DNA of 64,000 nt from Escherichia phage vB_EcoS-26175I. The stretch lies in the sequence record NC_133255.1; one strand, given 5' to 3'. Shown here in pieces: positions 25,112 to 39,083 of the stretch. The translations under genes were made by a program, and so were the position numbers. Every line of letters begins with the position of its first letter. Within the stretch, counting starts at the first letter, position 1. Below the pieces are notes generated by a model, which worked only from the letters and a program-made list of their open reading frames with translations, searched no databases and had not been told where the DNA came from.

Positions 25112-25187
25112 TGGTAGTTAGTAGTGGATTTGAACCACTGTAGTCGCCCCGTATGAAGGAGGTGCATAACCACTCTGCCAACTAACT
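25112..25187 (-). tRNA. tRNA-Met/Ile2 (anticodon CAU), CCA encoded
   Basis: Hand-folded cloverleaf: acceptor AGTTAGT/ACTAACT, T-arm AGTGG-TTCAAAT-CCACT, loop TTCATAC. Confidence 0.5.
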
Positions 25188-25193
25188 ATAATT

Positions 25194-25269
25194 TGGTACT
25201 CCGAGTTGGAATCGAACCAACGTTTGACGATTATCGGTCGCCCGTTCTAACCTATTGAACTATCAGAGC
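25194..25269 (-). tRNA. tRNA-Ile (anticodon GAU), loop CCGATAA with C at position 33
   Basis: Hand-folded: D-stem GTTC/GAAC, T-arm GTTGG-TTCGATT-CCAAC. Confidence 0.5.
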
Positions 25270-25270
25270 A

Positions 25271-25537
25271 TTAATACGGGTACTTGGCTCTTTTCACTGC
25301 TCTTTCAAATTCTCTAATATGTTCTCTAGAGAGTGCAGATAAATCAAAGGCACAAGATACTAAACGTTCTTTCTTGAAGAATCCTAAATAAAAGGAGGCT
25401 GTTATACATTGCGTAGGTCTAGCAAAGATCTTGTAAACTCCGGATTTAGGGATTCCCATACCCTTTTGATAATTACTGCCATTTGTAGGCCCAGCCATTA
25501 AGTTTTTGGGTACTAAGTCAAAACGTATTTTAATCAT
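25271..25537 (-). CDS. hypothetical protein
   Basis: 88-aa ORF. Confidence 0.45.
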   Translation of the reverse strand: MIKIRFDLVPKNLMAGPTNGSNYQKGMGIPKSGVYKIFARPTQCITASFYLGFFKKERLVSCAFDLSALSREHIREFERAVKRAKYPY

Positions 25538-25827
25538 CGCATAATATCCAAATAAGATTCATAACGATAGTCTGTTAGGCCTTCCTCCGTCACCGTAACC
25601 TTCACTGGAGGTACCCGACGAACTAAACCATGAATCATCTTGTACTGAATAGACTTAGATGGTTCGTGATCTTTTGGAAATACTTGTTTAACCGTTACTA
25701 CTTTGAAGCCTTCACGAGGTGTTAGCACAACAACTTGATCACCTTCTTTTATTTTCCAAGACTCAGGAAATTCGTAAGTATAGCGTTGACCACCAGTTTG
25801 GAACACGACAGAAAGATAACGTTTCAT
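25534..25827 (-). CDS. hypothetical protein
   Basis: 97-aa ORF downstream of an early promoter. Confidence 0.5.
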   Translation of the reverse strand: MKRYLSVVFQTGGQRYTYEFPESWKIKEGDQVVVLTPREGFKVVTVKQVFPKDHEPSKSIQYKMIHGLVRRVPPVKVTVTEEGLTDYRYESYLDIMR

Positions 25828-25857
25828 TTGGTTTCCCTCTCATTAATTTATATAAAT

Positions 25858-25886
25858 ATTATAACAAGAAATAAGAGAGAAGGCAA
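25858..25886 (-). promoter_or_regulatory. early sigma70 promoter (TTGCCT / TATAAT)
   Basis: Same module. Confidence 0.5.
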
Positions 25887-25905
25887 ATGAATTTTTTAAA
25901 TTTGA

Positions 25906-25977
25906 TGCTCCCACCAGGAATCGAACCCAGTTCAGATGCTTACAAGGCAACTGCATCGCCAGCAATGCTTTAGGAGC
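25906..25977 (-). tRNA. tRNA-Thr (anticodon UGU)
   Basis: Hand-folded: loop CTTGTAA, T-arm CTGGG-TTCGATT-CCTGG. Confidence 0.5.
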
Positions 25978-26143
25978 ATTAACCCGTTATTTCAACGGGA
26001 TTTCTTTTTCATATACAGGAGACTTATCAGACATTACTGTCCTAGCCAACTGCTGTAGAAATTCGAAGGAGAGTTTTAAACGTTCTTCACCCAACTCAAC
26101 CTCAACGCACTTCATTTGTTTATCAACCTTTAGCTTTAGATTA

Positions 26144-26365
26144 TCAGCCATCTTCGGATTCTCTTTGCTCAGCTATTGCTAGCCAGTTTGGTAAAAGAAA
26201 CTTCGTACGAAATTCTTCATATGTTTCTTCTGGATGAAAGCTATAACCTTGCTTTTCATCATTTAATAAAACCGAACCGTCTTCCTGTTCATAAGCTCGG
26301 TATGTTTCACCAATAATTAAAACTCGTCTATTAGGATTTTTATTACGAAACTCAAAAACGTGCAT
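26144..26365 (-). CDS. hypothetical protein
   Basis: 73-aa ORF. Confidence 0.45.
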   Translation of the reverse strand: MHVFEFRNKNPNRRVLIIGETYRAYEQEDGSVLLNDEKQGYSFHPEETYEEFRTKFLLPNWLAIAEQRESEDG

Positions 26366-26380
26366 AACGTTTCCTTAAAT

Positions 26381-26455
26381 TGGTGCGGGATACGAGAGTC
26401 GAACTCGTGTCTACTGGTTGGAAGCCAGTTATTCTAGCCACTGAACTAATCACGC
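26381..26455 (-). tRNA. tRNA-Gly (anticodon UCC)
   Basis: Hand-folded: anticodon stem ACTGG/CCAGT, loop CTTCCAA. Confidence 0.55.
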
Positions 26456-26461
26456 ATGAAT

Positions 26462-26537
26462 TGGCTGGAGAAGGAGGAATCGAACCTACCATTAACGGAG
26501 TCAAAGGCCGTTGTGCTAACCGTTACACTACTCTCCA
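26462..26537 (-). tRNA. tRNA-Gln (anticodon UUG)
   Basis: Hand-folded: loop CTTTGAC. Confidence 0.45.
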
Positions 26538-26543
26538 AGTATT

Positions 26544-26619
26544 TGGCTGGGATGCCACGGATCGAACGTGGAACCTTCGGAGTCAGAGGCCGACGATCTG
26601 CCAATTGATCTACATCCCA
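26544..26619 (-). tRNA. tRNA-Gln (anticodon CUG)
   Basis: Hand-folded: loop CTCTGAC, D-stem GATC/GATC. Confidence 0.45.
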
Positions 26620-26627
26620 ATAATTTT

Positions 26628-26828
26628 TTATTCTACAGGAACCGTGGCGATTGGATCAGGTTCTTCTAGACGTTTACCATTATGATCAACACGAATAATA
26701 CCACAACCCTCACAGATTACAACAGCACCATAGCCTTCTTTAACTTCGGCTTCTGTAATCAGCCCAGAAAGATCACCAGTATCTTTTCCCCACATATCAA
26801 TGGAACATTCTTTGCAGAAATCAGCCAT
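26628..26828 (-). CDS. small zinc-ribbon protein (CKEC...CEGC)
   Basis: 66-aa ORF with two CxxC pairs. Confidence 0.45.
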   Translation of the reverse strand: MADFCKECSIDMWGKDTGDLSGLITEAEVKEGYGAVVICEGCGIIRVDHNGKRLEEPDPIATVPVE

Positions 26829-26851
26829 ATTTTATTTCCCGTTTAAGTTAG

Positions 26852-26927
26852 TTGGTGCATCCTCAGGGAATCGAACCCCGATCGTAAAGTTCGTAGCTTT
26901 ACATTCTTTCCATTGAAATAAGGACGC
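26852..26927 (-). tRNA. tRNA-Arg (anticodon ACG)
   Basis: Hand-folded: perfect anticodon stem TAAAG/CTTTA, loop CTACGAA. Confidence 0.6.
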
Positions 26928-26933
26928 AATATT

Positions 26934-27010
26934 TGGGGTGACTAGTGGAATTCGAATCCACATAGGCCTGATTCACAATCAGGATCATTAACCAATTATG
27001 ATATAGCCAC
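26934..27010 (-). tRNA. tRNA-His (anticodon GUG), discriminator C
   Basis: Hand-folded: anticodon stem CCTGA/TCAGG, loop TTGTGAA. Confidence 0.6.
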
Positions 27011-27188
27011 AATTGAAATCTCTAGTTATCCCTTTCGTAGGGGCTAAAGGGCGATACCCATCCTAAAGACTTCAATTGTGGCGGCTCTCCGAAACTCATC
27101 ACACTAACAACTAGTTGATTACTTCTGGATTCTCGCCCAGAAAATTCTCTAGAAAGGTGCACCGTTACTCTTTGAGCCATTGAATATC

Positions 27189-27320
27189 AAGAAGTAGAAG
27201 GACTCGAACCTTCACGAGATAGACCATTTATCTCAGCCTCGTTTTCGGGTATCTTATGAGGAGTGGATGTTCCCCTTACGCCCTTTAGGAAGCCCCGTCT
27301 ACCGATTCCGGCATACTTCA
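27189..27320 (-). ncRNA. tRNA-like element with canonical T-arm (GAAGG-TTCGAGT-CCTTC) but no cloverleaf I could complete
   Basis: T-arm at 27197-27213; no 5' acceptor partner within normal tRNA length. Confidence 0.25.
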
Positions 27321-27325
27321 AGATT

Positions 27326-27413
27326 TGGCAGAAGATAATGGAGTCGAACCATCACCGTATCACTACAGCGGGCCGGTTTTCAAGACCGGTTACGTACCAC
27401 TACGTCCTATCTT
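27326..27413 (-). tRNA. tRNA-Ser (anticodon UGA), class II with long variable arm
   Basis: Hand-folded: anticodon stem CCGGT/ACCGG, loop CTTGAAA; 88 nt; acceptor AGAAGAT/ATCTTCT. Confidence 0.6.
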
Positions 27414-27770
27414 CTATTGTTCGTATATTACAAAGTTTACAGATTCAGAGTAATAACCATTACTAGAACCATGCCATTTAACGGTTACACAGCCTTTAGC
27501 TGTGGCAAACTTATACCATGTATGGGTTACTGAATCCCAATCTTCTGTAGCGTGTGTGATTACTTCCTCTGCTTCTATGATTGGATAACCTAAAAGGTCA
27601 TGTAAATCACCAATAATATCATCTATATGAACATCTTCACAGCAGTCCTGCTCATGATAAAACTTATAGTTCTTACCATCAGTACAAATGAAGATAAGAG
27701 TATCTTGGTCTTGGCATACATTAGTAAAAATTTTGCCAAGCATTTCATTATAGATTGTCACTTCTGACAT
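27414..27770 (-). CDS. hypothetical acidic protein
   Basis: 118-aa ORF. Confidence 0.5.
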   Translation of the reverse strand: MSEVTIYNEMLGKIFTNVCQDQDTLIFICTDGKNYKFYHEQDCCEDVHIDDIIGDLHDLLGYPIIEAEEVITHATEDWDSVTHTWYKFATAKGCVTVKWHGSSNGYYSESVNFVIYEQ

Positions 27771-27792
27771 ATTAGTTTCCTAGTAAGTTGTT

Positions 27793-27882
27793 TGGCGGAA
27801 GAAGAGAGATTCGAACTCTCAAGCCGTTTTACCAGTCAGCCACTTTCCAAGCGGTTTTCGTCACCTATCGATTTGCTCTTCC
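27793..27882 (-). tRNA. tRNA-Ser (anticodon GGA), class II
   Basis: Hand-folded: loop TTGGAAA; 90 nt; acceptor GGAAGAG/TTCTTCC. Confidence 0.5.
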
Positions 27883-28057
27883 GTAGATCTCAGGATTAAA
27901 TCATAAACTTCATTAGCGGATACTGGAAGTATGAGATTATACATCTTTTGGTCATACCTCTGACCATACTCTATAAACACATACTCTTTAGTTAATGTAT
28001 TAACAGCTAACCAGATATCAGTTATAGGAGTTTTCATCATGAGTTAATCCAATGTTT

Positions 28058-28138
28058 GGTAGGGATGGAGGGACTCGAACCCACACCCGAAGACTAGAAC
28101 CTAAATCTAGCGCGTCTGCCAATTTCGCCACATCCCCA
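28058..28138 (-). tRNA. tRNA-Leu (anticodon UAG)
   Basis: Hand-folded: anticodon stem CTAGA/TCTAG, loop TTTAGGT; 81 nt. Confidence 0.45.
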
Positions 28139-28144
28139 TTTTAT

Positions 28145-28363
28145 TTAGTTAGAAATAAATAATAATCCCGCAACAATAGAACCTACGCCACTGAATACCA
28201 TTATCAGCATAGCTTCTAAGCTGATAAAGCGGACAGTATATGGAGCGCCCCAAGAATAATCAGTAAAGAAAGTTTTCTTTTCTTTAGCTAAATCTTTAAT
28301 AGTTCTAAAATAGATAGCTAGTGCTAAAGCTGCAAGAACTACAGAGGCTGCTAAGAATACCAT
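28145..28363 (-). CDS. small membrane protein
   Basis: 72-aa ORF with two transmembrane segments. Confidence 0.45.
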   Translation of the reverse strand: MVFLAASVVLAALALAIYFRTIKDLAKEKKTFFTDYSWGAPYTVRFISLEAMLIMVFSGVGSIVAGLLFISN

Positions 28364-28382
28364 ATTATTTCCTTAATTTGTT

Positions 28383-28458
28383 TGGTGGAGTCACTCAGAA
28401 TTGAACTGAGTTCCACTGCTTGCAAGGCAGTAAGTTTAACCAAATAACCTATGACCCC
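28383..28458 (-). tRNA. tRNA-Ala (anticodon UGC) with G3:U70
   Basis: Hand-folded: anticodon stem ACTGC/GCAGT, loop CTTGCAA; acceptor GGGGTCA with G3-U70 identity pair. Confidence 0.6.
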
Positions 28459-28463
28459 GAATT

Positions 28464-28542
28464 TGGTGGAGAATAAGAGATTCGAACTCTTCTGATATCC
28501 TCGGTGCAAGCGAGGTGTCCACTCCAAGCAGACCCATTCCCC
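28464..28542 (-). tRNA. second UGC-anticodon tRNA (Ala-like, G3:U70, 11-nt D-loop, 7-nt variable region)
   Basis: Hand-folded: anticodon stem CCTCG/CGAGG, loop CTTGCAC. Confidence 0.4.
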
Positions 28543-28551
28543 AAAATTTAT

Positions 28552-28815
28552 TTATTCTCTATACATATCGAGAACAGTTGCTACAATCTGAGCTTCTAGC
28601 CTAGCAATATCTTTATTCACTATATCAGATTCTACTACTAAGTGATTATATATTGCTTCAGTTTTAGCAAGATCTATATCAGATAGTTTATTAAGACTAT
28701 TATAATACTTAGCATTATTGCAACGTTTCTTCATATCGGAAACTCGTTTATGGAGGGTTCTTTGTTGATAACGTTGCGACATTAGTTTCTTAGCCATATC
28801 TTTAAGATCAAACAT
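28552..28815 (-). CDS. hypothetical protein
   Basis: 87-aa ORF. Confidence 0.45.
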   Translation of the reverse strand: MFDLKDMAKKLMSQRYQQRTLHKRVSDMKKRCNNAKYYNSLNKLSDIDLAKTEAIYNHLVVESDIVNKDIARLEAQIVATVLDMYRE

Positions 28816-29080
28816 AGATATTCCTTCTAGTTTACTAAGGCTATTAGCTCGGTGTGCGTATTACCCTCAGACATTAGCCAGTAGAGGATAACCGCTCTTC
28901 ACAAACCCGATACACTATTCAGTTGCCGCTGAATCTAGTGGACTAATCTAGAACTTATTGCAAAGTATCCCCTGCCATTAGGGGTCTAATTGCAATTGTG
29001 CTTTTTGGCAGCCAGTCCTAGGTCGAGCTAATACCTTAGTGAACTTTGATGAGGATTTCTCCTCATCAATTTATATAAAT

Positions 29081-29109
29081 ATTATAACAAGAAATTAAGC
29101 ATCAAGCAA
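29081..29109 (-). promoter_or_regulatory. early sigma70 promoter (TTGCTT / TATAAT)
   Basis: Same module; followed by about 265 bp without an ORF. Confidence 0.55.
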
Positions 29110-29461
29110 GTACATTTTTAGCGATTTCTTGTAGTTCCTTAACGTCGCTAACGAAAAGGTAATCAGAGCTTCCAGAGTGCATACTCTGCATAACCACACC
29201 ATCCTCTGGTGCATCTTCCTTCAAAGTAAGTCCTAACCAGAACTTGGCAAAACCAGGTGTTACCTCACCTTGACTTGCCTTGAACACATCGCCTTCTGTG
29301 ATCTCTTGACCAGTAGAGAGTCCCATGTATGGTACGTTCAGATCAATATCTTTGTAGAACTCAGCTAGATCTTGCTCGAAATCCCAACCTTTAGAGATAG
29401 CGAACTCCATTGTTACATGACCGAAATAGCCTTGAACCTTGCTTGATAATTGCATTTGCAA
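29102..29461 (-). CDS. hypothetical protein
   Basis: 119-aa ORF. Confidence 0.55.
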   Translation of the reverse strand: MQMQLSSKVQGYFGHVTMEFAISKGWDFEQDLAEFYKDIDLNVPYMGLSTGQEITEGDVFKASQGEVTPGFAKFWLGLTLKEDAPEDGVVMQSMHSGSSDYLFVSDVKELQEIAKNVLA

Positions 29462-29480
29462 TTCCTTATTTTGAGTTAAT

Positions 29481-29554
29481 TGGTACTCGGTGATAGAATC
29501 GAACTATCGCAACCGCCGTGTAAAGACGGGGTTCTCCCATTAAACTAACCGAGT
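29481..29554 (-). tRNA. tRNA-Val (anticodon UAC)
   Basis: Hand-folded: loop TTTACAC, T-arm GATAG-TTCGATT-CTATC. Confidence 0.55.
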
Positions 29555-29558
29555 AATT

Positions 29559-29635
29559 TGGTGGATTGCCTGGGATTCGAACCCAGAACTGACGGATTAA
29601 AGGTCCGCTACTCTTATCCAGTTGAGCTAGCAATC
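29559..29635 (-). tRNA. tRNA-Lys (anticodon UUU), loop CCTTTAA with C at position 33
   Basis: Aligns arm by arm with E. coli tRNA-Lys except C33 in place of U33. Confidence 0.6.
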
Positions 29636-30100
29636 CAATTTTTCTACTAATAATTTAAAAGCATCTAGTACAGGTACTTCAAACCATTCTCCAGATACTC
29701 TATAATCTTTAAGAAGATTATGTAATTCTTTCTCTGTACGTCTTTTATCAGACGAAAATCTGAAATGGTATAGCTTGTAGTCTCTATTAGGTGAATAAGT
29801 TTGATAACTTGCTAACCTCTCATTCACATCTATAGTCATACCTATTTTATACATGCCTGGCCATGCTGGATTACCAATTACATATACAAAACCTTCCGTT
29901 ATAGGTATTTTATGCTCCCTTTTATACTTTAAGAGATTTAAGGCTGCCATTCGATAACAGAATCTAAACTCTGAAGTTTTTAACTTACCTTCTTTACCCG
30001 AAATTTCGTTATATTTGCTCATATAAGCTCTTATGAGCTTATCATCTATAATGAAGTTATCAGGAAGGTTTAAGGCAGCTAAAACTTTATTAATTAGCAT
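29627..30100 (-). CDS. T5orf172-domain protein (GIY-YIG-like putative homing endonuclease)
   Basis: GFVYVIGNPAWPGMYKIGMT...RL motif typical of the T5orf172 / MUG113 family. Confidence 0.6.
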   Translation of the reverse strand: MLINKVLAALNLPDNFIIDDKLIRAYMSKYNEISGKEGKLKTSEFRFCYRMAALNLLKYKREHKIPITEGFVYVIGNPAWPGMYKIGMTIDVNERLASYQTYSPNRDYKLYHFRFSSDKRRTEKELHNLLKDYRVSGEWFEVPVLDAFKLLVEKLDC

Positions 30101-30277
30101 AGACTTCCTTAATAGAATAAACTTTTAAGTAAGGGTGATTAATACCAAATTCCGCCATCACTTCGTTTTCATCTTTACCGTAATGGGCTAGTGGATACTT
30201 CTTACGATCTTTGCTAGAACGTAGATCACTTACTTTTAAACGAAATAATTTCATTTCGAAATCCTTCTATTAAATTG

Positions 30278-30354
30278 GAAGCGGGTGCAGGAATCGAACC
30301 TACCTCTTTCTAGCTTATGAGACTAGCGATCTCTACCAGAGATCTAACCCGCAA
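30278..30354 (-). tRNA. tRNA-Met/Ile2 (anticodon CAU)
   Basis: Hand-folded: loop CTCATAA; 1:72 mismatch. Confidence 0.45.
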
Positions 30355-30359
30355 TTGTT

Positions 30360-30437
30360 TGGTCTCCGTGGGAGGATTTGAACCCCCGACCCTACCGCCC
30401 CAAACGGAACGCTCTGGCCAAACTGAGCTACACGGAG
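30360..30437 (-). tRNA. tRNA-Pro (anticodon UGG)
   Basis: Hand-folded: loop TTTGGGG, acceptor CTCCGTG/CACGGAG. Confidence 0.55.
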
Positions 30438-30469
30438 AATATTCTTTGTTAACTCACTTTATAAAATAT

Positions 30470-30498
30470 ATTATACAGATATTTAAGCATAATAGCAA
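30470..30498 (-). promoter_or_regulatory. early sigma70 promoter (TTGCTA / TATAAT) driving a tRNA operon
   Basis: Same module, directly upstream of tRNA genes. Confidence 0.55.
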
Positions 30499-30744
30499 AT
30501 GAGTTTTTAATAAATTTACTTATTGCGTAGGCCACCTCACGCTTCAAACGCTCTGCTGACAAAGAAGTTTGCGAGACTTCTCTTAAATGCCAGAATAGAC
30601 CCGCCGATCTATCGGAACCTACTCAATAAGTAAACTTTCGTTTACCTACACCTACCTGGTCGGGAGGATTTTCAGCGACTAGAACCGGCCGGAAACTCAT
30701 CGCCTTGTTTATCTAGGAGTCCGTTCTCTAGGAAGCAGAAACCT

Positions 30745-30818
30745 AAATTTGGTGCGGTCGGAGGGAATCGAACCCTCAACTTCTGGTTGGCAACCAAAAA
30801 TTATACCTTTTAACTACG
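30745..30818 (-). tRNA. tRNA-Gly (anticodon GCC)
   Basis: Hand-folded: loop TTGCCAA, T-arm GAGGG-TTCGATT-CCCTC. Confidence 0.55.
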
Positions 30819-30825
30819 AACGCAT

Positions 30826-30955
30826 AATAAGTCAATCTAGGCAGGACTTGAACCTGCTATCACTTGTGCGGATTTACGAGAACCATTCTTTCACTCGAAT
30901 CGAACGAGCTTCTACCCTCGGCAAGCTGGTGTCCCCTCTCCACCACGCTAGAATG
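30826..30955 (-). ncRNA. two tRNA-like T-arm elements without complete cloverleaves (pseudo-tRNAs or small RNAs)
   Basis: GCAGG-ACTTGAA-CCTGC at 30836-30852 and ACTCG-AATCGAA-CGAGC at 30888-30904; no matching acceptor stems. Confidence 0.25.
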
Positions 30956-30956
30956 T

Positions 30957-31034
30957 TTAATTGGTACACCTGCTGAGATTCAAACTCAGGATCTTCCGAT
31001 TAAGAGTCGGTTGCTTTAAGTCAACTAAGCTACA
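30957..31034 (-). tRNA. tRNA with loop CTCTTAA (anticodon CUU, Lys)
   Basis: Hand-folded: D-stem GCTT/AAGC, T-arm CTGAG-TTTGAAT-CTCAG. Confidence 0.45.
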
Positions 31035-31579
31035 GATGCATTTATATCTTTATAGGACTTACCAGCCAGTCTTGTATAGCGTTTTCGCAAACCATTATCT
31101 GACATGCCCAATTCTCTAGAAGCTCTAGACCATGAGTAATTTTTAACCCAGTACTCTATTTGTTCTACAGTAATTTCTTGTGGATTTTGACAGTGCTGTT
31201 TGCAGTAACTAGCTCTTTTAGCTATTTCTTTGTTGCAAATAGGACAGAAATTTTTATCTGAACTTAATCCACGTTCTTCTATAGTTTTGAGAATATGATC
31301 AGCTTTACTTCGTACAATCAGATTTTCAAGAGAGAAATTTAGTTTATTTGTATCATCATGATCTACTTCTAAGTCAGAACTCAAAGATGGTAGATCTTTG
31401 TATACTCTCGCTAATACTCTGTGTAATAGAAGATGTTTTGATTTTCCATTATGTTGAACAGTAAAGAAAGGATACCCAGAAGTATTAATCTGTATTGAAA
31501 GTATACGATTAACTTTAGTACTAAATACTTCCCCAGTCTCACTTATTAAGTATTCTGGATATTCGGGTATTTCTTTCAT
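31025..31579 (-). CDS. HNH homing endonuclease
   Basis: HRVLARVY...EVDHDDTNKLNFSLENL HNH core; 184 aa; inserted among tRNA genes. Confidence 0.7.
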   Translation of the reverse strand: MKEIPEYPEYLISETGEVFSTKVNRILSIQINTSGYPFFTVQHNGKSKHLLLHRVLARVYKDLPSLSSDLEVDHDDTNKLNFSLENLIVRSKADHILKTIEERGLSSDKNFCPICNKEIAKRASYCKQHCQNPQEITVEQIEYWVKNYSWSRASRELGMSDNGLRKRYTRLAGKSYKDINASVA

Positions 31580-31595
31580 TACTGTTCCTTATAAT

Positions 31596-31672
31596 TTGGC
31601 GCGACCGATGGGATTCGAACCCACATTCTCTCCCGTGACAGGGGAGTACCATTACCAAGCCAGCCCCGATCG
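31596..31672 (-). tRNA. tRNA-Asp (anticodon GUC)
   Basis: Hand-folded: perfect anticodon stem CTCCC/GGGAG, loop CTGTCAC. Confidence 0.6.
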
Positions 31673-31682
31673 CATAATTTGT

Positions 31683-31868
31683 TTACTCAGCTTTGAGTTT
31701 TTCGATAGCTTCCTCAACCTCTTTTAGAGCTTCACGACGCTCTACTTGACCTTGAAGTTCTTCAAGAAGTTCAGCTTTCAGAGCCTTAATAATATTACCA
31801 CGAACCTTAATATTATTAATCAGATTATCACGATCAGCTTCTAGTCGAGCAATTGCACGAGTTGTCAT
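31683..31868 (-). CDS. small coiled-coil protein
   Basis: 61-aa ORF. Confidence 0.4.
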   Translation of the reverse strand: MTTRAIARLEADRDNLINNIKVRGNIIKALKAELLEELQGQVERREALKEVEEAIEKLKAE

Positions 31869-31895
31869 ATCTATTTCCTCAGTTGTTAGTGAAAT

Positions 31896-31981
31896 TGGCG
31901 GGCCGTGTAGGAGTTGAACCTACTTTATCCTTGCGGATACGGATTAACAGTCCGGCGCTTAAACCGTTCAGCCAACGGCCC
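31896..31981 (-). tRNA. class II (long variable arm, Tyr-like body) tRNA with anticodon loop CTGTTAA (GUU)
   Basis: 86 nt; acceptor GGGCCGT/ACGGCCC; 3-bp D-stem; loop differs from the Tyr loop CTGTAAA at one position. Confidence 0.4.
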
Positions 31982-31988
31982 TAAAATT

Positions 31989-32064
31989 TGGACGACCGCA
32001 TGAGATTCGAACTCACATAAGGAGGTTTTGCAGGCCTCCGCCTAAGCCATTCAGCCAACGGTCG
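31989..32064 (-). tRNA. tRNA-Cys (anticodon GCA), discriminator U
   Basis: Hand-folded: loop CTGCAAA. Confidence 0.55.
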
Positions 32065-32242
32065 ATTTATCTTGTTTTTCGAGATTAGTAAATTCTAAGT
32101 CTTTGGAATGCCCTATAGATCTAGCATAATAACCATCTCCAGCATCGTAGCCTGATTTACCACACTCACACATCTTAAACTCCCGATAACGAGTGAATAT
32201 ATGCTCAGAACCACAACACTTAAATTTAACTAACATTTTCAT
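32051..32242 (-). CDS. small Cys-rich protein
   Basis: 63-aa ORF; its 3' end overlaps the tRNA-Cys call. Confidence 0.35.
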   Translation of the reverse strand: MKMLVKFKCCGSEHIFTRYREFKMCECGKSGYDAGDGYYARSIGHSKDLEFTNLEKQDKSTVG

Positions 32243-32481
32243 GAAACACGCTCCGGTAGATCTTCTAATTTATACTCAGTAGCTACATTAGTAGCGTCTA
32301 GTAATAAACCCATATGTTTAAGGATTTTAGTAATAGATTCGCCTTCAGCTTCTTCTACAAAAGTGCGTAGTTGAATGAAGTCAATACCACCATCCATACC
32401 AGAGAAAATGTTTAGTAAGCGAAGCATTACCAGCTTACGTTCTTTTAATTCTTGTTCTGTCATGTTGCTTCTCCAGTTCAA
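32239..32481 (-). CDS. hypothetical protein
   Basis: 80-aa ORF. Confidence 0.45.
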   Translation of the reverse strand: MNWRSNMTEQELKERKLVMLRLLNIFSGMDGGIDFIQLRTFVEEAEGESITKILKHMGLLLDATNVATEYKLEDLPERVS

Positions 32482-32493
32482 TTTATGTAATAA

Positions 32494-32521
32494 TTATACA
32501 GAACTTTAAGGATTTAAGCAA
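32494..32521 (-). promoter_or_regulatory. early sigma70 promoter (TTGCTT / TATAAT)
   Basis: Same module. Confidence 0.5.
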
Positions 32522-32801
32522 CTACATTTTTCAGAAATTTGATGCCTTTCTTTTTCTTCTTATATTTCCACGTTAACGGGTTCTGTCGATTATGAACGCT
32601 TGAGATCTTTGTCTCGTCAAAGTTCTTCAATACCATGTAATCACATGCCAACTGCTCTAGTGGAATGGTTTCTCCATCAAAAGCATAAACATAAGGCTGT
32701 TGACTAGCACGATAATGATAGACTTTGTTAATTCTACATTTCAGCGACTTATCCGCGCAGTAAATAAAGAAGTTTTCAGGATGCATCAGCATCTCCTTCA
32801 A
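32514..32801 (-). CDS. hypothetical protein
   Basis: 95-aa ORF. Confidence 0.45.
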   Translation of the reverse strand: MKEMLMHPENFFIYCADKSLKCRINKVYHYRASQQPYVYAFDGETIPLEQLACDYMVLKNFDETKISSVHNRQNPLTWKYKKKKKGIKFLKNVVA

Positions 32802-32803
32802 AT

Positions 32804-32878
32804 TGGTGCACCCTGTTCGTATCGAACGAACCTCTCAAGCTCTTCAGGCAAGCGCTAATCCATCTCAGCTAAAGGTGC
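32804..32878 (-). tRNA. tRNA, possibly Phe (anticodon GAA) with a weak anticodon stem
   Basis: T-arm GTTCG-TTCGATA-CGAAC, acceptor GCACCTT/AGGGTGC; loop CTGAAGA. Confidence 0.35.
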
Positions 32879-32884
32879 AAATAT

Positions 32885-32962
32885 TGGCAAACCTACTAGG
32901 ACTCGAACCTAGACCGTACGGTTTTGGAGACCGACATGCTGTCCAGTAACACTCTAGGAATG
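32885..32962 (-). tRNA. tRNA-Trp (anticodon CCA), acceptor stem imperfect
   Basis: Anticodon arm CGGT-CTCCAAA-ACCG, T-arm CTAGG-TTCGAGT-CCTAG. Confidence 0.4.
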
Positions 32963-32969
32963 CAGAAAT

Positions 32970-33046
32970 TGGCGTCCTGTGCGGGGATCGAACCCGCAAA
33001 TCCTACCTTGAAAGGGTAGTGACTTTACCAGTTTGTCTAACAGGAC
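32970..33046 (-). tRNA. tRNA-Glu (anticodon UUC)
   Basis: Perfect acceptor GTCCTGT/ACAGGAC; anticodon stem CTACC/GGTAG, loop CTTTCAA. Confidence 0.65.
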
Positions 33047-33053
33047 TTAAATT

Positions 33054-33134
33054 TGGTGGGGGATGGAGGACTCGAACCTCCGCGTGGTATACCCGGTCTA
33101 CAGCCAGGCGCCGTCGCCACTGAGCCAATCCCCC
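33054..33134 (-). tRNA. tRNA-Tyr (anticodon GUA)
   Basis: Acceptor GGGGGAT/ATCCCCC; anticodon arm CCTGG-CTGTAGA-CCGGG; 81 nt. Confidence 0.5.
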
Positions 33135-33260
33135 CCTATTTGAATGAAAAGTAAGTCGGTTAAACTCAAGGTGGAATATTTCAGGATTTCCTGACTTTAC
33201 CCCTAAAAGTCAACTCGCTTAATTACTTCTCATTCAGATATGTTTCCAAATTAGATAACT

Positions 33261-33289
33261 ATTATATCAAGTTTTATGGCACTGAGCAA
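33261..33289 (-). promoter_or_regulatory. early sigma70 promoter (TTGCTC / TATAAT) upstream of a tRNA operon
   Basis: Same module; -35 lies inside a 12-bp perfect inverted repeat. Confidence 0.5.
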
Positions 33290-33318
33290 GTCAAATTTTA
33301 AAGAACTTGCTCAGTGCT
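33278..33318. promoter_or_regulatory. 12-bp perfect inverted repeat GCACTGAGCAAG...CTTGCTCAGTGC overlapping the promoter -35 (candidate operator)
   Basis: Read from sequence; 17-nt spacer; no T-run, so not a typical terminator. Confidence 0.4.
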
Positions 33319-33325
33319 GTATTAG

Positions 33326-33601
33326 TTAGTCGAACTTAGGAGTGACAGTTAAGGAGAACGGAAGTTCAAAAACTTCTTCACCCTCATCACTAACAGTGAT
33401 TACACGACCTTTAAGTTCAGACATTGAAATATCAATATCAGCTTTTGCATCTGGAGCCATGCCAGCTTCAACACATTTAGCTTTAATTTCCGGCAGAAGT
33501 TCTACATCATAGAAATAAAGCCATTCAATCTCACCTTCCCAGCCTTCCCAGGATTTACAGATTGCACTTTCAATACCAGTTGTTATAACACGATTTTGCA
33601 T
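33326..33601 (-). CDS. hypothetical protein
   Basis: 91-aa ORF. Confidence 0.5.
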   Translation of the reverse strand: MQNRVITTGIESAICKSWEGWEGEIEWLYFYDVELLPEIKAKCVEAGMAPDAKADIDISMSELKGRVITVSDEGEEVFELPFSLTVTPKFD

Positions 33602-33631
33602 TCGTTAACTCCTTCATCAATTTATATAACT

Positions 33632-33661
33632 ATTATACCAGAAATTTAAAGCAAAAGGCAA
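33632..33661 (-). promoter_or_regulatory. early sigma70 promoter
   Basis: Same module; -35 TTGCCT-like. Confidence 0.45.
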
Positions 33662-33691
33662 GTACATTTTTAAAAATTCTGTTTGGAGGAG

Positions 33692-33898
33692 CTAAACTCC
33701 AGATTCTTCAGCCAGATCAAGCCCAACCAATGTGATTGCCATAATAGCCGCGCCATGTTCTTTCTCTCCTAGCTCTTTGGCTTGAGTGAGAATATTTAGG
33801 AACTGCTTGTGGAAATCTTCCACTTCTTCTGTCATGCCTGCTTCAGAAATAATACCTTTCAGCATAAAGCGCTGTGCAGTAATTTCAGGATTAGCCAT
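33692..33898 (-). CDS. hypothetical protein
   Basis: 68-aa ORF. Confidence 0.4.
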   Translation of the reverse strand: MANPEITAQRFMLKGIISEAGMTEEVEDFHKQFLNILTQAKELGEKEHGAAIMAITLVGLDLAEESGV

Positions 33899-34049
33899 TT
33901 ATTATCTCCAGTTATTTAGAATGTAAGCCAAACTTAGGATCATAGCGATCATAAGTCGTACCATTAGTTGAAGTCTTGATGCTATGAAAACGACAGTACA
34001 TAAATTTACGTAGTGCTTTCTTAATAGCTTTCATTTTATTTCCTTAATT

Positions 34050-34126
34050 TGGTAGGGGTGGTGGGATTCGAACCCACAAAACCTGAATTTTAAGTCCAGT
34101 ACCTATGCCAATTCGATTACACCCCC
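34050..34126 (-). tRNA. class I tRNA with anticodon loop CTTAAAA (UAA, Leu-type anticodon on a short-variable-arm body)
   Basis: Acceptor GGGGGTG/CACCCCT, T-arm GTGGG-TTCGAAT-CCCAC, anticodon stem CTGGA/TTCAG. Confidence 0.4.
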
Positions 34127-34135
34127 ATGTAATCT

Positions 34136-34483
34136 TTAGAGTTCGTAACCCTGAATATATCGAGCAAAACCAGTAATCTCGAACTGAATTGCCCATGCTA
34201 CTTCCATATGCTCAATCTTACTAAAATGAGCGTCAGACTGTTCTAGGAAATAACGAGAGATTATAGGGAACTCAATGTCAAAATCTTCCTTATCCATACC
34301 ATAGAAGAAGTTTCCAGAAATATTACGAACTTCACGAAAGAAATCCTCAATCTGAAAATCCATCAGAGGATAAGTATATTCCTCTTTGCTATCATCCGTT
34401 TGGAAGAAGCGGAAATGCACAAGGCAAGAGCCAATCAGATTTACTGCTGGAGTAGTGTAAATATCCATGTTAACCTCGATCAA
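34136..34483 (-). CDS. hypothetical protein
   Basis: 115-aa ORF. Confidence 0.5.
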   Translation of the reverse strand: MIEVNMDIYTTPAVNLIGSCLVHFRFFQTDDSKEEYTYPLMDFQIEDFFREVRNISGNFFYGMDKEDFDIEFPIISRYFLEQSDAHFSKIEHMEVAWAIQFEITGFARYIQGYEL

Positions 34484-34655
34484 TATCTAGAGAAATTCCA
34501 AATTCTGGATTAATACCAGAACCATTACATGCTGCGCATTCCCACTCTTCAAAACGCATATCGCCAGGTTCAGCATCATTAATAGTACCTGTTCCATGGC
34601 AGTGAGTACACATGCACTCTTCTAGTTCTTGTTTAAGCTCTTGAAACTTAGACAT
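34470..34655 (-). CDS. small zinc-finger protein (CxxCxGxG repeats, DnaJ-like)
   Basis: CTHCHGTG and CAACNGSG motifs; 61 aa. Confidence 0.5.
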   Translation of the reverse strand: MSKFQELKQELEECMCTHCHGTGTINDAEPGDMRFEEWECAACNGSGINPEFGISLDIDRG

Positions 34656-34672
34656 ATAGTCTCCTAGTTAAT

Positions 34673-34750
34673 TGGTGGCTCCCGGAGGATTCGAACCTAC
34701 CTACCTTTCGCTTATGAGGCGACGGCTCATACCAAATGAGCTTGAGAACC
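34673..34750 (-). tRNA. tRNA-Met/Ile2 (anticodon CAU)
   Basis: D-stem GCTC/GAGC, loop CTCATAA, T-arm GTAGG-TTCGAAT-CCTCC. Confidence 0.5.
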
Positions 34751-34755
34751 AAATT

Positions 34756-34844
34756 TGGAGGAAGAAGTGGGAATCGAACCCACAAGGCTATGTTTCAAAC
34801 CGACAGATTAGCAATCTGCTGCAATACCGTTATGCTATTCTTCC
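34756..34844 (-). tRNA. tRNA-Ser (anticodon GCU), class II
   Basis: 89 nt; perfect acceptor GGAAGAA/TTCTTCC; loop TTGCTAA; long variable arm. Confidence 0.55.
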
Positions 34845-39008: not shown

Positions 39009-39083
39009 TGGCCGAGGTGACAGGATTCGAACCTGCATAAAGGAATTTAGAAGACTCCTGCCTATCCCTTAGACTACACCCCG
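39009..39083 (-). tRNA. tRNA-Arg (anticodon UCU)
   Basis: Acceptor CGGGGTG/CACCTCG, loop CTTCTAA, T-arm GCAGG-TTCGAAT-CCTGT. Confidence 0.55.

What the first reader, a model, noticed from the sequence alone, without database searches (positions are those of the whole stretch)
25112..34844. Large tRNA cluster with non-canonical anticodon loops (C33 in tRNA-Lys and tRNA-Ile)
About 30 tRNA genes sit on the minus strand in short promoter-driven operons, interleaved with homing endonucleases. By hand folding, tRNA-Lys(UUU) at 29559-29635 has loop CCUUUAA and tRNA-Ile(GAU) at 25194-25269 has loop CCGAUAA, both with C where U33 is nearly invariant; the Lys tRNA otherwise aligns arm by arm with E. 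coli tRNA-Lys. Altered anticodon loops in phage tRNAs are consistent with escape from host anticodon nucleases such as PrrC, which cleaves tRNA-Lys next to the wobble base.
Basis: partly seen in the sequence, partly recalled or inferred. Interest (0 to 1): 0.6.

Follow-up and report, generated by a model that had tools for sequence, protein, structure and literature searches.

The report
Phage tRNAs with C at position 33
A T5-like coliphage carries about 30 tRNA genes, and its lysine and isoleucine tRNAs have a C where almost every tRNA has a U, right beside the anticodon. This may help them escape bacterial tRNA-cutting defences, but nobody has tested it.

Summary
ARAGORN and the Rfam tRNA model both give loop CC-UUU-AA for tRNA-Lys(UUU) (29559-29636, C33 = 29602) and CC-GAU-AA for tRNA-Ile(GAU) (25194-25269, C33 = 25236). 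The other 29 tRNAs have U33.

The window is Escherichia phage vB_EcoS-26175, an Epseptimavirus, and the cluster is the known, publicly annotated T5-type tRNA-rich region.

C33 belongs to particular alleles:
- The Lys allele is in about 85 phage records and the Ile allele family in about 200. Every variant I read keeps C33.
- T5 and SP15 carry other alleles with U33.
- Unrelated Aeromonas T4-like phages have C33 in exactly the same two tRNAs.
- IMG/VR holds at least 15 (Lys) and 26 (Ile) distinct C33 lineages.
- In bacterial genomes this C33 Lys stem-loop occurs only inside dense tRNA arrays.

Position 33 is the nucleotide 5' of the PrrC cut. In vitro, U33C on E. coli initiator tRNA-Met blocks t6A37 synthesis.

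Nuclease evasion is therefore plausible and fits published work on T5-like tRNA-Lys, but it is untested for C33.

Three findings weaken it. Phage tRNAs deviate 2-3% at other invariant positions too. The Lys allele travels with a homing endonuclease. C33 is not enriched in the t6A class.

Verdict: a new variant of a known kind, of moderate interest.

The parts
25112..34844 (-). tRNA-rich region with 29 tRNA genes, syntenic with the T5 tRNA region
   Evidence: ARAGORN and Rfam. 100% identical to Escherichia phage vB_EcoS-26175 I-V. All tRNAs are annotated in MK907270. Gene order matches T5.
29559..29636 (-). tRNA-Lys(UUU), 78 nt with encoded CCA. Anticodon stem GCGGA/UCCGU, loop CCUUUAA (29597-29603), C33 at 29602.
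   Evidence: The cloverleaf is kept by compensatory changes across alleles.
25194..25269 (-). tRNA-Ile(GAU), 76 nt with encoded CCA. Anticodon stem GGCGA/UCGUC, loop CCGAUAA (25231-25237), C33 at 25236.
   Evidence: 100% of cells are paired across alleles, and 15 pairs change on both sides.
29627..30100 (-). 157-aa T5orf172/MUG113 (GIY-YIG-like) putative homing endonuclease. Its last 10 nt overlap the 5' end of tRNA-Lys(UUU). It is not annotated in MK907270.
   Evidence: Pfam E = 1e-18 and 7e-15. About 84 phage records carry a copy at 80% identity or more. A 49-50% identical homologue lies next to the C33 tRNA-Lys of Aeromonas T4-like phages. Annotated 'putative homing endonuclease' in Bas30 TrudiRoth.
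30962..31039 (-). tRNA-Lys(CUU) with normal U33, an isoacceptor that is absent from T5, SP15, DaisyDussoix and Kpn_3
31025..31579 (-). 184-aa NUMOD4 + HNH_3 putative homing endonuclease that overlaps the 5' end of tRNA-Lys(CUU). It is not annotated in MK907270.
34845..35354 (-). 169-aa HNH_3 + AP2 putative homing endonuclease directly upstream of tRNA-Ser(GCU)
39009..39083 (-). Outlying tRNA-Arg(UCU) with U33
40243..40316 (-). Outlying tRNA-like gene with anticodon UCA, called 'SeC' by ARAGORN, with U33
   Evidence: Rfam 33 bits. Sequence.

Best explanation
These are two intact, functional elongator tRNA genes in the tRNA-rich region of a T5-like phage (Epseptimavirus).

They belong to an allelic series. 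At both the Lys(UUU) and the Ile(GAU) locus, related phages carry interchangeable tRNA genes that differ throughout, including completely in the anticodon stem, while keeping the cloverleaf.

The alleles here have a U33-to-C change. I propose that they replace host tRNA-Lys(UUU) and tRNA-Ile(GAU) when those are destroyed by anticodon nucleases during infection, and that C33 is one of the changes that make the phage copies poor substrates.

Shown:
- The genes, their loops, their conservation and their recurrence in other phages.

From the literature:
- Position 33 supplies the 3' side of the PrrC/RloC cut.
- Host Lys(UUU) is a target of PrrC, AriB and a bacterial Schlafen.
- Host Ile(GAU) is a secondary target of HepS.
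- E. coli TsaBCDE cannot make t6A37 on an E. coli initiator tRNA-Met carrying U33C.

Inferred:
- C33 lowers cleavage, either directly because the base at the scissile junction changes, or indirectly because the loop lacks t6A37 and so looks different to the nuclease.
- The tRNAs still decode AAA/AAG and AUU/AUC well enough.
- Homing endonucleases in the cluster move such alleles between phages.
For: - Intact tRNAs. Rfam scores are 59.9 and 62.3 bits. Across alleles, 98-100% of stem positions stay paired, with 17 and 15 pairs changed on both sides.
- Allelic series. There are four Lys(UUU) anticodon stem-loops at one syntenic site: GCGGA-CCUUUAA-UCCGU, CUGGU-CUUUUAA-ACCAU, UCCGA-CUUUUAA-UCGGA and CCGAG-CUUUUAC-CUCGU. 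There are three Ile(GAU) stem-loops.
- C33 is retained. The Lys allele is in 85 of 293 records. It is unchanged at 33 in Shin27, Elw, Bas30 and Bas32, although they differ elsewhere. The Ile family is in 201 records. It is C33 in six Demerecviridae variants at 88-100% identity, spanning Epseptimavirus, Tequintavirus and Sugarlandvirus. An 84% identical homologue in the unrelated phage KP2025 has the same stem but U33.
- Recurrence. A second, divergent Ile(GAU) in phiR2-01 also has C33. Aeromonas T4-like phages phiAS4 and L039 have C33 in Lys(UUU) and Ile(GAU) among their 16 tRNAs; one of the two also has an 85-nt Phe(GAA) call with G33.
- Specific to mobile elements. The C33 Lys 17-mer has 18 hits in 185,579 species genomes. 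Six are tRNAs, all in arrays of 5-22 tRNAs per 8 kb or less, and those arrays hold further C33 tRNAs.
- Substitutions at 33 are almost always to C (38 C, 2 G, 1 A), as expected if a pyrimidine is still needed.
- Literature. PrrC cuts 3' of U33. T5-family tRNA-Lys defeats PARIS and PrrC170. HepS cuts Ile(GAU). A Schlafen nuclease is described as recognising the U-turn, cutting just 5' of the conserved uridine. The 2023 survey listed coliphage tRNA-Lys(ttt) as 'No mutation' at CU-UUUAA, so this allele fills that gap. U33C on E. coli initiator tRNA-Met blocks E. coli t6A synthesis.
- Demand. AAA and AUU are the third and fourth most used codons in the window's long ORFs.
Against: - No cleavage, modification or charging data exist for any C33 phage tRNA.
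- The experimentally protective tRNA-Lys genes of T5 and SP15 have U33, so C33 is not needed for evasion of PARIS or PrrC170.
- For the one nuclease where U33C was tested, K. lactis gamma-toxin, it had no effect.
- The Lys allele keeps U36-A-A-U-C-C41, the same site as E. coli tRNA-Asn, which is a secondary AriB target. It also keeps U39, whose change to A is what abolishes AriB cutting. It may therefore still be PARIS-sensitive.
- In my sample of 1,441 phage tRNAs, other 'invariant' positions deviate just as often as U33: G53 2.6%, T54 3.6%, T55 2.0%, C56 1.7%, A58 2.6%, against U33 2.8%.
- In loci not selected for it, C33 is only 2/28 for Lys(UUU) and 1/28 for Ile(GAU).
- C33 is not enriched in ANN-decoding tRNAs (7/466 against 33/1065, p = 0.08).
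- Lys and Ile C33 do not co-occur significantly.
- Loss of t6A37 should cost decoding, and for tRNA-Ile it should also cost charging.
Confidence: 0.4

Rival explanations
1. C33 is a tolerated, nearly neutral variant. Phage tRNAs are under looser constraint than cellular ones, U33 is not strictly required for decoding, and a U-to-C transition became fixed in these alleles without any role in defence evasion.
For: - Phage tRNAs deviate 1.7-3.6% at G53, T54, T55, C56, A58 and C61, the same range as U33 at 2.8%.
- C33 is scattered over many isoacceptors, including Val, Pro, Ser, His, Ala, Glu and Gly.
- There is no significant enrichment by tRNA class and no Lys/Ile co-occurrence.
- U33C had no effect on the one nuclease tested.
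- From my own knowledge, not checked here: yeast tRNAs with U33 replaced still suppress amber codons and react with ribosomes (Bare et al. 1983; Dix et al. 1986).
Against: - C33 is kept in every sampled variant of two alleles that are spread over about 85 and about 200 phage genomes and three genera, while other positions change.
- The same two isoacceptors carry C33 in unrelated Aeromonas T4-like phages, and a second, divergent Ile body in phiR2-01 does too.
- Replacements are almost only C, not purines.
Confidence: 0.3
2. The spread of the Lys allele is driven at the DNA level by the adjacent homing endonuclease. The T5orf172 nuclease cuts phages that lack it, and repair copies the nuclease gene together with the neighbouring tRNA-Lys allele. 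C33 is then either a passenger or one of the target-site differences that protect the carrier from its own nuclease.
For: - The nuclease ORF overlaps the tRNA by 10 nt.
- About 84 records carry it at 80% identity or more, against 85 records with the allele.
- The same ORF-tRNA pair, at 49-50% protein identity and with an identical anticodon stem-loop, occurs in Aeromonas T4-like phages of another family.
- Precedent: T4 SegB cuts inside tRNA genes and drives inheritance of the T4 tRNA region. [quoted passage not shown]
- Elw has a hybrid gene with the acceptor stem of another allele and the rest from this one, as gene conversion would produce.
Against: - Elw keeps the C33 allele without the nuclease.
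- Only 5 of 32 loci with a C33 Lys(UUU) hold a T5orf172-like ORF.
- No homing endonuclease was seen next to tRNA-Ile(GAU): the neighbouring ORFs are short or annotated hypothetical, and were not run against Pfam.
- Many other differences between alleles could give target immunity, so C33 is not needed for it.
- This explains spread, not why position 33 in particular changed. It is compatible with the main explanation.
Confidence: 0.15
3. C33 makes these tRNAs independent of t6A37 or otherwise tunes decoding. t6A37 normally prevents a U33:A37 pair across the loop, and C33 removes that pair. A heavily transcribed phage tRNA could then work without competing for the host t6A enzymes, or it could read AAA and AUU/AUC with altered wobble or frameshift behaviour.
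For: - E. coli TsaBCDE does not modify E. coli initiator tRNA-Met carrying U33C, and yeast KEOPS does not modify tRNA-Thr(UGU) carrying U33C.
- The role of t6A in preventing U33:A37 pairing is stated in PMC7102964.
- Both C33 tRNAs here are ANN decoders.
- All three T5-like phages with the C33 Lys(UUU) allele also encode a separate Lys(CUU) for AAG.
Against: - C33 is not enriched among ANN decoders in phage tRNAs. If anything it is rarer: 1.5% against 3.1%, p = 0.08.
- Two phages with U33 Lys alleles also carry Lys(CUU).
- The E. coli result is for one tRNA in vitro.
- t6A is a positive element for charging tRNA-Ile, so its loss should be costly.
Confidence: 0.1
4. The C33 tRNAs are not used in translation. 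They act as decoys that bind and occupy an anticodon nuclease, or they are decaying genes.
For: The PARIS study raises the possibility that overexpressed viral tRNAs inhibit AriB by competition. U33 is the most conserved loop base in elongator tRNAs.
Against: - The cloverleaves are perfect, the T loops canonical, CCA is encoded and the Rfam scores are high.
- The stems show compensatory evolution.
- In this phage they are the only genes for anticodons UUU and GAU, which read about 66 and 56 codons per 1000.
Confidence: 0.05

Closest known systems
T5 tRNA-Lys(UUU), the PARIS (AriB)-resistant viral tRNA (Burman et al. 2024, PMC11464382; PMC12409363)
   Same: It is the same locus in the same phage family, the same isoacceptor and the same gene neighbourhood (fMet-Pro upstream, Val downstream). 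It is a phage copy of a host tRNA that defence nucleases destroy, and it differs from the host in the anticodon arm.
   Different: T5 has U33 and escapes through U39A and A41C on the 3' strand of the stem. The allele here has C33, keeps U39 and has only A41C. It is a different solution, possibly aimed at a different nuclease, and it is untested.
Phage SP15 tRNA-Lys, which rescues phages from the PrrC170 anticodon nuclease (Azam et al. 2024, PMC11555353)
   Same: It is a T5-like phage tRNA-Lys(UUU) that counters a PrrC-type nuclease, which cuts between positions 33 and 34.
   Different: SP15 has loop CUUUUAA with U33 and stem UCCGA/UCGGA, so its protection does not depend on C33.
Anticodon-loop mutation hypothesis for phage tRNAs (van den Berg et al. 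2023, PMC10264068)
   Same: It is the same logic: phage tRNAs differ from host tRNAs at or near nuclease cleavage sites.
   Different: That survey lists coliphage tRNA-Lys(ttt) as having no mutation at the PrrC/RloC junction CU-UUUAA and explains it by RNA ligases. The CC-UUUAA allele found here is a mutation at exactly that junction and is not in that paper or its supplement.
Initiator tRNA-Met of multicellular eukaryotes (C33)
   Same: It is the only well-known natural tRNA class with C33, and it shows that a C33 loop can work on the ribosome.
   Different: Those are initiators with their own identity features, and their t6A enzymes have adapted to C33. The tRNAs here are bacterial-type elongators that act in hosts whose t6A enzyme was blocked by U33C on initiator tRNA-Met in vitro.
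T4 SegB and the T4 tRNA gene region (PMC2330249)
   Same: A GIY-YIG-type free-standing homing endonuclease sits inside a phage tRNA cluster and carries flanking tRNA genes with it.
   Different: SegB activity and preferential inheritance were demonstrated. For ORF 29627-30100 only the domain, its position and its distribution are known.

Membership tests
Bacterial-type elongator tRNA (Rfam RF00005) | Cloverleaf with 7-bp acceptor stem, 4-bp D stem, 5-bp anticodon stem, 7-nt loop and 5-bp T stem | tested here: met
   Full-length model matches 1-71 at 59.9 and 62.3 bits. ARAGORN cloverleaves.
Bacterial-type elongator tRNA (Rfam RF00005) | U at position 33 (U-turn) | tested here: not met
   C33 in both. 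The literature calls U33 conserved in elongators, with only exceptional departures.
Bacterial-type elongator tRNA (Rfam RF00005) | Canonical T loop (GTTCGAnTC) and a purine at position 37 | tested here: met
   GGTTCGAATCC (Lys) and GGTTCGATTCC (Ile), with A37 in both.
T5-type tRNA-rich region of Demerecviridae | Same gene order and genomic position as the T5 tRNA cluster, with homing endonucleases interspersed | tested here: met
   76-100% of the 10-kb region is covered at 94-100% identity in Epseptimavirus genomes. The order Met-Ile-Thr-Gly-Gln-Gln...Val-Lys-fMet-Pro...Phe-Trp-Glu-Tyr...Ile2-Ser is the same as in T5. Nuclease domains.
Nuclease-resistant phage tRNA (as T5 tRNA-Lys against AriB) | Phage copy of a host isoacceptor that a defence nuclease targets | tested here: met
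   Lys(UUU) is a target of PrrC, AriB and RorSlfn5. Ile(GAU) is a secondary target of HepS.
Nuclease-resistant phage tRNA (as T5 tRNA-Lys against AriB) | Sequence difference from the host tRNA at or next to the cleavage site | tested here: met
   C33 against host U33 at the PrrC/RloC junction 33|34. At the AriB site only A41C, with U39 kept. The HepS cut site was not found in the passages of that paper that I searched.
Nuclease-resistant phage tRNA (as T5 tRNA-Lys against AriB) | Not cleaved by the nuclease, and rescues infection | not testable with these tools
   Needs cleavage and plaque assays. No published data on C33 alleles were found.
Free-standing homing endonuclease cassette (HEG plus flanking tRNA) | ORF with a homing-endonuclease-type nuclease domain | tested here: met
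   T5orf172/MUG113, E = 7e-15 and 1e-18.
Free-standing homing endonuclease cassette (HEG plus flanking tRNA) | Present or absent among otherwise syntenic relatives | tested here: met
   Present in the window, phiR2-01, L108, Bas30, Bas32 and Shin27. Absent at that site in T5, SP15, DaisyDussoix and Elw.
Free-standing homing endonuclease cassette (HEG plus flanking tRNA) | Cuts the allele that lacks it and is preferentially inherited | not testable with these tools
Eukaryote-type C33 initiator tRNA | CAU anticodon, three G:C pairs closing the anticodon stem, A54/A60 | tested here: not met
   The anticodons are UUU and GAU, the stems are GCGGA and GGCGA, and the T loop is TTCGAAT/TTCGATT. Only C33 is shared.

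The most novel reading that the evidence does not exclude
C33 marks a class of phage ANN-decoding tRNAs that the host cannot modify to t6A37. With both the base at the scissile junction and the neighbouring modification changed, they would be invisible to a set of HEPN-type anticodon nucleases (PrrC/RloC for Lys, HepS-like for Ile). The Lys version would be the anti-defence cargo of a homing-endonuclease cassette that has moved between siphoviruses of enterobacteria (Demerecviridae) and myoviruses of Aeromonas (Straboviridae).
Probability: 0.15. Interest if true: 0.75.

Novelty: new variant of a known kind. Interest (0 to 1): 0.45.

Why it matters
U33 is among the most conserved nucleotides in biology, and natural elongator tRNAs without it are regarded as exceptional.

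If C33 protects phage tRNAs, that would show three things:
- The nucleotide at the PrrC/RloC junction is a specificity element for these nucleases.
- A phage may give up a near-universal modification (t6A37) in order to hide a tRNA.
- There is a second, independent way, besides the T5 stem changes, to escape tRNA-targeting immunity.

It would also help when choosing or engineering therapeutic T5-like phages for hosts that carry anticodon nucleases.

The reagents already exist. BASEL phages Bas30 (TrudiRoth) and Bas32 (IrisVonRoten) carry the identical C33 tRNA-Lys, and Bas31 carries a U33 allele.

If C33 is neutral, the result is still useful. It would show that about 3% of phage tRNAs break 'invariant' rules without consequence.

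Tried and rejected
- E. coli genome search. BLAST of both phage tRNAs against 5,426 complete E. coli genomes gave no match. These alleles were therefore not detectably present there, though short 76-78-nt queries against 28 Gb need high identity to score. I took the host tRNAs from MG1655 by coordinates instead.
- Linkage of Lys-C33 and Ile-C33. Counts in loci that hold both tRNAs were 4 CC, 4 CT, 22 TC and 38 TT, an odds ratio of about 1.7 under biased sampling. This is not significant, and within T5-like phages the two assort independently.
- C33 as a mark of t6A-class (ANN-decoding) tRNAs. Rejected as a general rule: 7/466 against 33/1065, p = 0.08, in the wrong direction.
- C33 linked to C32. 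Not significant, p = 0.39.
- U33 as uniquely variable in phage tRNAs. Rejected, because other invariant positions deviate at 1.7-3.6%.
- Denominators for C33 frequency. I could not get them from IMG/VR because the pattern scans stop at 120 rows.
- Promoter scan. It gave fewer sites than shuffled sequence, so it does not support the operon claim on its own.
- Literature. The RemAIN paper (PMC11840918) is not held. One search was wasted because 'RemAIN' matched the word 'remain'. No paper in the library gives the effect of U33 changes on PrrC or RloC.
- Overlapping-ORF constraint at the DNA level. Rejected, because the T5orf172 ORF covers only tRNA positions 1-10, not the loop.

Full report

Yes. 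ARAGORN finds 31 tRNA genes in the window, all on the minus strand, and 29 of them lie between 25112 and 34844. The Rfam tRNA model finds 27 of those 29 at its gathering score.

For tRNA-Lys(UUU) at 29559-29636, the structure-aware Rfam alignment and the ARAGORN cloverleaf agree. The anticodon stem is GCGGA/UCCGU and the loop is C32 C33 U34 U35 U36 A37 A38.

For tRNA-Ile(GAU) at 25194-25269, they give stem GGCGA/UCGUC and loop C32 C33 G34 A35 U36 A37 A38.

The two cytosines are window bases 29602 and 25236. The other 29 tRNAs all have T at position 33.

Both genes are among the best tRNA matches in the cluster, at 59.9 and 62.3 bits, and both encode CCA. The E. coli K-12 counterparts have loops CUUUUAA (lysT) and CUGAUAA (ileV).

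Only the 5' end of the Lys gene was one base short.

**2. What is the region?**

The 10-kb stretch is 100% identical to Escherichia phage vB_EcoS-26175 I-V, an Epseptimavirus (Demerecviridae, T5-like), and 94-97% identical to many Salmonella, Escherichia and Citrobacter phages.

The public record MK907270 annotates the same 31 tRNAs. Gene order matches the T5 tRNA region, where promoters, stable RNAs and the homing endonucleases F-TflI to F-TflVI are annotated. This is therefore the known T5-type tRNA-rich region.

Three ORFs in it have homing-endonuclease domains:
- 29627-30100 (T5orf172/MUG113)
- 31025-31579 (NUMOD4 + HNH_3)
- 34845-35354 (HNH_3 + AP2)

The first two overlap tRNA genes and are not annotated in the public record.

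My simple promoter scan gave 23 sites against 27.9 expected by chance. The 'promoter-driven operons' claim therefore rests on homology with T5, not on my scan.

**3. C33 belongs to particular alleles.**

I ran ARAGORN on the tRNA regions of eight relatives.

The Lys(UUU) gene at one syntenic site comes in at least four forms:
- GCGGA-CCUUUAA-UCCGU (window, phiR2-01, Elw)
- CUGGU-CUUUUAA-ACCAU (T5)
- UCCGA-CUUUUAA-UCGGA (SP15, DaisyDussoix, vaffelhjerte), with the near-variant CCCGA-CUUUUAA-UCGGA in Kpn_3
- CCGAG-CUUUUAC-CUCGU (EscoHU1)

Ile(GAU) comes in three forms:
- GGCGA-CCGAUAA-UCGUC (window, EscoHU1, Kpn_3)
- GAGAG-CCGAUAA-CUCUC (phiR2-01, a different tRNA body that also has C33)
- CUCGG-CUGAUAA-CCGAG (T5, SP15, Elw, DaisyDussoix, vaffelhjerte)

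The two C33 genes assort independently: Elw has only the Lys one and EscoHU1 only the Ile one.

Across alleles the cloverleaf is kept by compensatory changes. For Lys, 98.4% of stem cells are paired and 17 pairs change on both sides. For Ile, 100% are paired and 15 pairs change on both sides. None of 500 shuffles reached these values. These are working tRNA genes whose stems, the anticodon stem included, have been rewritten.

**4. How widespread and how stable is C33?**

The C33 Lys allele is present at 95% identity or more in 85 of the 293 phage records that have a detectable homologue. Variants differing in the D loop (Shin27) or the acceptor stem (Elw) keep C33. BASEL phages Bas30 and Bas32 carry the identical gene.

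The Ile allele family is in 201 records. Six Demerecviridae variants at 88-100% identity, from Epseptimavirus, Tequintavirus and Sugarlandvirus, all have C33. An 84% identical homologue in the unrelated 149-kb Klebsiella phage KP2025 has the same stem with U33.

Aeromonas T4-like phages (phiAS4 and IMG/VR contig L039, Straboviridae) have C33 in Lys(UUU) and Ile(GAU) among their 16 tRNAs. One of the two also has an 85-nt Phe(GAA) call with G33.

In 185,579 bacterial and archaeal species genomes, the 17-nt C33 Lys stem-loop occurs only 18 times. Six of these are tRNAs. All six lie in dense arrays of 5-22 tRNAs within 8 kb or less on metagenome-assembled contigs. Those arrays contain further C33 tRNAs (Asn, Thr, Asp, His, Glu). 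Such arrays are typical of phages. C33 therefore looks like a feature of mobile-element tRNA arrays, not of core cellular tRNAs, which fits the literature statement that U33 departures are exceptional.

**5. Controls that temper this.**

- In loci not selected for the tRNA in question, C33 is found in 2/28 Lys(UUU), 1/28 Ile(GAU) and 42/1535 other phage tRNAs.
- In 1,441 phage tRNAs with clean T arms, U33 deviates in 2.8%. G53, T54, T55, C56, A58 and C61 deviate in 1.7-3.6%. Phage tRNAs break 'invariant' rules at this rate everywhere.
- C33 is not enriched in ANN-decoding tRNAs (7/466 against 33/1065, p = 0.08).
- Lys-C33 and Ile-C33 do not co-occur significantly.
- One point does argue for constraint: replacements at 33 are nearly always C (38 C, 2 G, 1 A).

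**6. What could C33 do?**

*(a) The cleavage junction.* PrrC cuts tRNA-Lys '3' to the canonical U33', and RloC cuts there too after a first cut 3' of the wobble base. C33 therefore changes the nucleotide on the 5' side of the cut.

The 2023 survey that proposed nuclease evasion by phage tRNAs lists coliphage tRNA-Lys(ttt) as 'No mutation' at CU-UUUAA and invokes RNA ligases instead. The CC-UUUAA allele is the missing case.

*(b) Known targets.*
- Host Lys(UUU) is hit by PrrC, by PARIS AriB and by a bacterial Schlafen.
- Host Ile(GAU) is a secondary target of HepS, a HEPN anticodon nuclease of the Salmonella Gifsy-1 prophage that restricts siphoviruses.
- A CRISPR-associated Schlafen is described as recognising the canonical U-turn, cutting just 5' of the conserved uridine.

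*(c) Modification.* Reconstituted E. coli TsaBCDE cannot make t6A37 on E. coli initiator tRNA-Met carrying U33C, and yeast KEOPS cannot on tRNA-Thr(UGU) carrying U33C. The authors call C33 an anti-determinant.

Lys(UUU) and Ile(GAU) both decode ANN codons and normally carry t6A37. The phage C33 copies are therefore probably unmodified at position 37. This is an inference from one tRNA in vitro. t6A normally prevents a U33:A37 pair across the loop, and C33 would remove that pair.

*(d) Demand.* AAA and AUU are the third and fourth most used codons in the window's long ORFs.

**7. What argues against nuclease evasion by C33 specifically?**

- The two T5-family tRNA-Lys genes shown to protect phages, T5 against PARIS and SP15 against PrrC170, both have U33.
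- T5 escapes AriB through U39A and A41C. The allele here keeps U39 and reads U36-A-A-U-C-C41, the same site as E. coli tRNA-Asn, a secondary AriB substrate. It may therefore still be PARIS-sensitive.
- For K. lactis gamma-toxin, the only nuclease with U33C data in the library, the change had no effect.
- Nothing is known about cleavage, modification or charging of any C33 phage tRNA.

**8. The homing-endonuclease link.**

The T5orf172 ORF ends 10 nt inside the C33 tRNA-Lys gene. About 84 phage records hold a copy at 80% identity or more, close to the 85 records with the allele.

It is present but unannotated in phiR2-01, and present in Bas30, Bas32 and Shin27. A homologue at 49-50% identity sits just upstream of the C33 tRNA-Lys in the Aeromonas T4-like phages.

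This looks like a nuclease-plus-tRNA cassette shared between two phage families. It recalls T4 SegB, which cuts in tRNA genes and drives inheritance of the T4 tRNA region.

It explains how the allele spreads and why alleles are mosaic. It does not explain C33 itself, for three reasons:
- Elw keeps the allele without the nuclease.
- Only 5 of 32 C33-Lys loci have such an ORF.
- No homing endonuclease was seen beside the Ile gene; its neighbouring ORFs are short or annotated hypothetical and were not run against Pfam.

**9. Verdict.**

The concept is established for this phage family and the position is apt, but C33 itself is untested and is not needed for the protection already demonstrated.

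My best explanation, at confidence 0.4, is that these are functional replacement tRNAs from an allelic series shaped by conflict with anticodon nucleases. C33 would be one evasive change, acting directly at the junction or through loss of t6A37.

The rivals are:
- a tolerated neutral variant (0.3)
- spread or target immunity driven by the homing endonuclease (0.15)
- independence from t6A or tuning of decoding (0.1)
- a decoy or pseudogene (0.05)

The tRNA cluster is already known and annotated. The C33 alleles, their recurrence and the cassette appear unreported in the library I searched. I classify this as a new variant of a known kind, of moderate interest, and directly testable with Bas30 and Bas32.

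Noticed in passing
window 29627-30100 (-); L161 6638-7021; L039 3310-3576: A T5orf172/GIY-YIG-like ORF overlaps the 5' end of the C33 tRNA-Lys. A 49-50% identical homologue sits in the same position next to a C33 tRNA-Lys in Aeromonas T4-like phages. This looks like a nuclease-plus-tRNA cassette shared between Demerecviridae and Straboviridae. The ORF is not annotated in MK907270 or phiR2-01.
   Followed up: partly
window 31025-31579 (-) and 34845-35354 (-): Two further putative homing endonucleases: NUMOD4+HNH_3, which overlaps the 5' end of tRNA-Lys(CUU), and HNH_3+AP2, which abuts tRNA-Ser(GCU). The first is not annotated in the public record.
   Followed up: partly
window 40243-40316 (-); L001 19432-19505; L108: A tRNA-like gene with anticodon UCA, called 'SeC' by ARAGORN (33 bits in Rfam). 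The T5 counterpart, inside the annotated stable RNA 'RNAX', shares the acceptor, D and T arms but has a completely different anticodon arm (loop UAACUGG, A33). It could be an opal-reading tRNA or a tRNA-like RNA with a hypervariable anticodon arm.
   Followed up: no
window 27793-27882 (-) and 28464-28542 (-): ARAGORN calls tRNA-Ser(GGA) and a second tRNA-Ala(UGC), but neither reaches the Rfam gathering score. They may be degenerate or unusual tRNAs. T5 annotates several 'tRNA-like stable RNAs' in this region.
   Followed up: no
L003 12822-12895 (phiR2-01); L146/L152; L159: Some phage tRNA-Ile(GAU) genes have T loops AUCGUAA or AUCGUUA. The usual T54-A58 reverse-Hoogsteen pair appears swapped to A54-U58. 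In the wider sample, A54 (38 cases) and T58 (34 cases) occur at similar frequency.
   Followed up: no
L141 (IMGVR_UViG_3300037461_000469, 168.8 kb): A 35-tRNA array in which Lys(UUU), Asn(GUU), Thr(UGU), Thr(GGU) and Glu(CUC) all have C33, and an Ile(GAU)-like sequence has it too. The array also contains a normal U33 Lys(UUU). It may be a phage with duplicate 'hardened' copies of ANN-decoding tRNAs.
   Followed up: no
window 24379-24747 (-): A 122-aa ORF with a glycyl-radical domain (Pfam Gly_radical, E = 4e-18) lies just downstream of the tRNA cluster. It resembles a stand-alone spare part for pyruvate formate-lyase, and relatives annotate it as pyruvate formate lyase or acetyltransferase-related.
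   Followed up: no
window 31896-31981 (-) and 25904-25978 (-): The phage tRNA-Asn(GUU) keeps U36-A-A-U-C-C, the AriB site of E. coli tRNA-Asn. The phage tRNA-Thr(UGU) reads U36-A-A-G-C-A, which differs at position 39. Exposure of this phage's tRNAs to PARIS may therefore differ from that of T5.
   Followed up: no
window 30962-31039 (-): The phage encodes tRNA-Lys(CUU). It is absent from T5, SP15, DaisyDussoix and Kpn_3, and the K-12 lysT locus I fetched holds only Lys(UUU) genes. All three T5-like phages with the C33 Lys(UUU) allele have it, but so do two phages with U33 alleles.
   Followed up: partly
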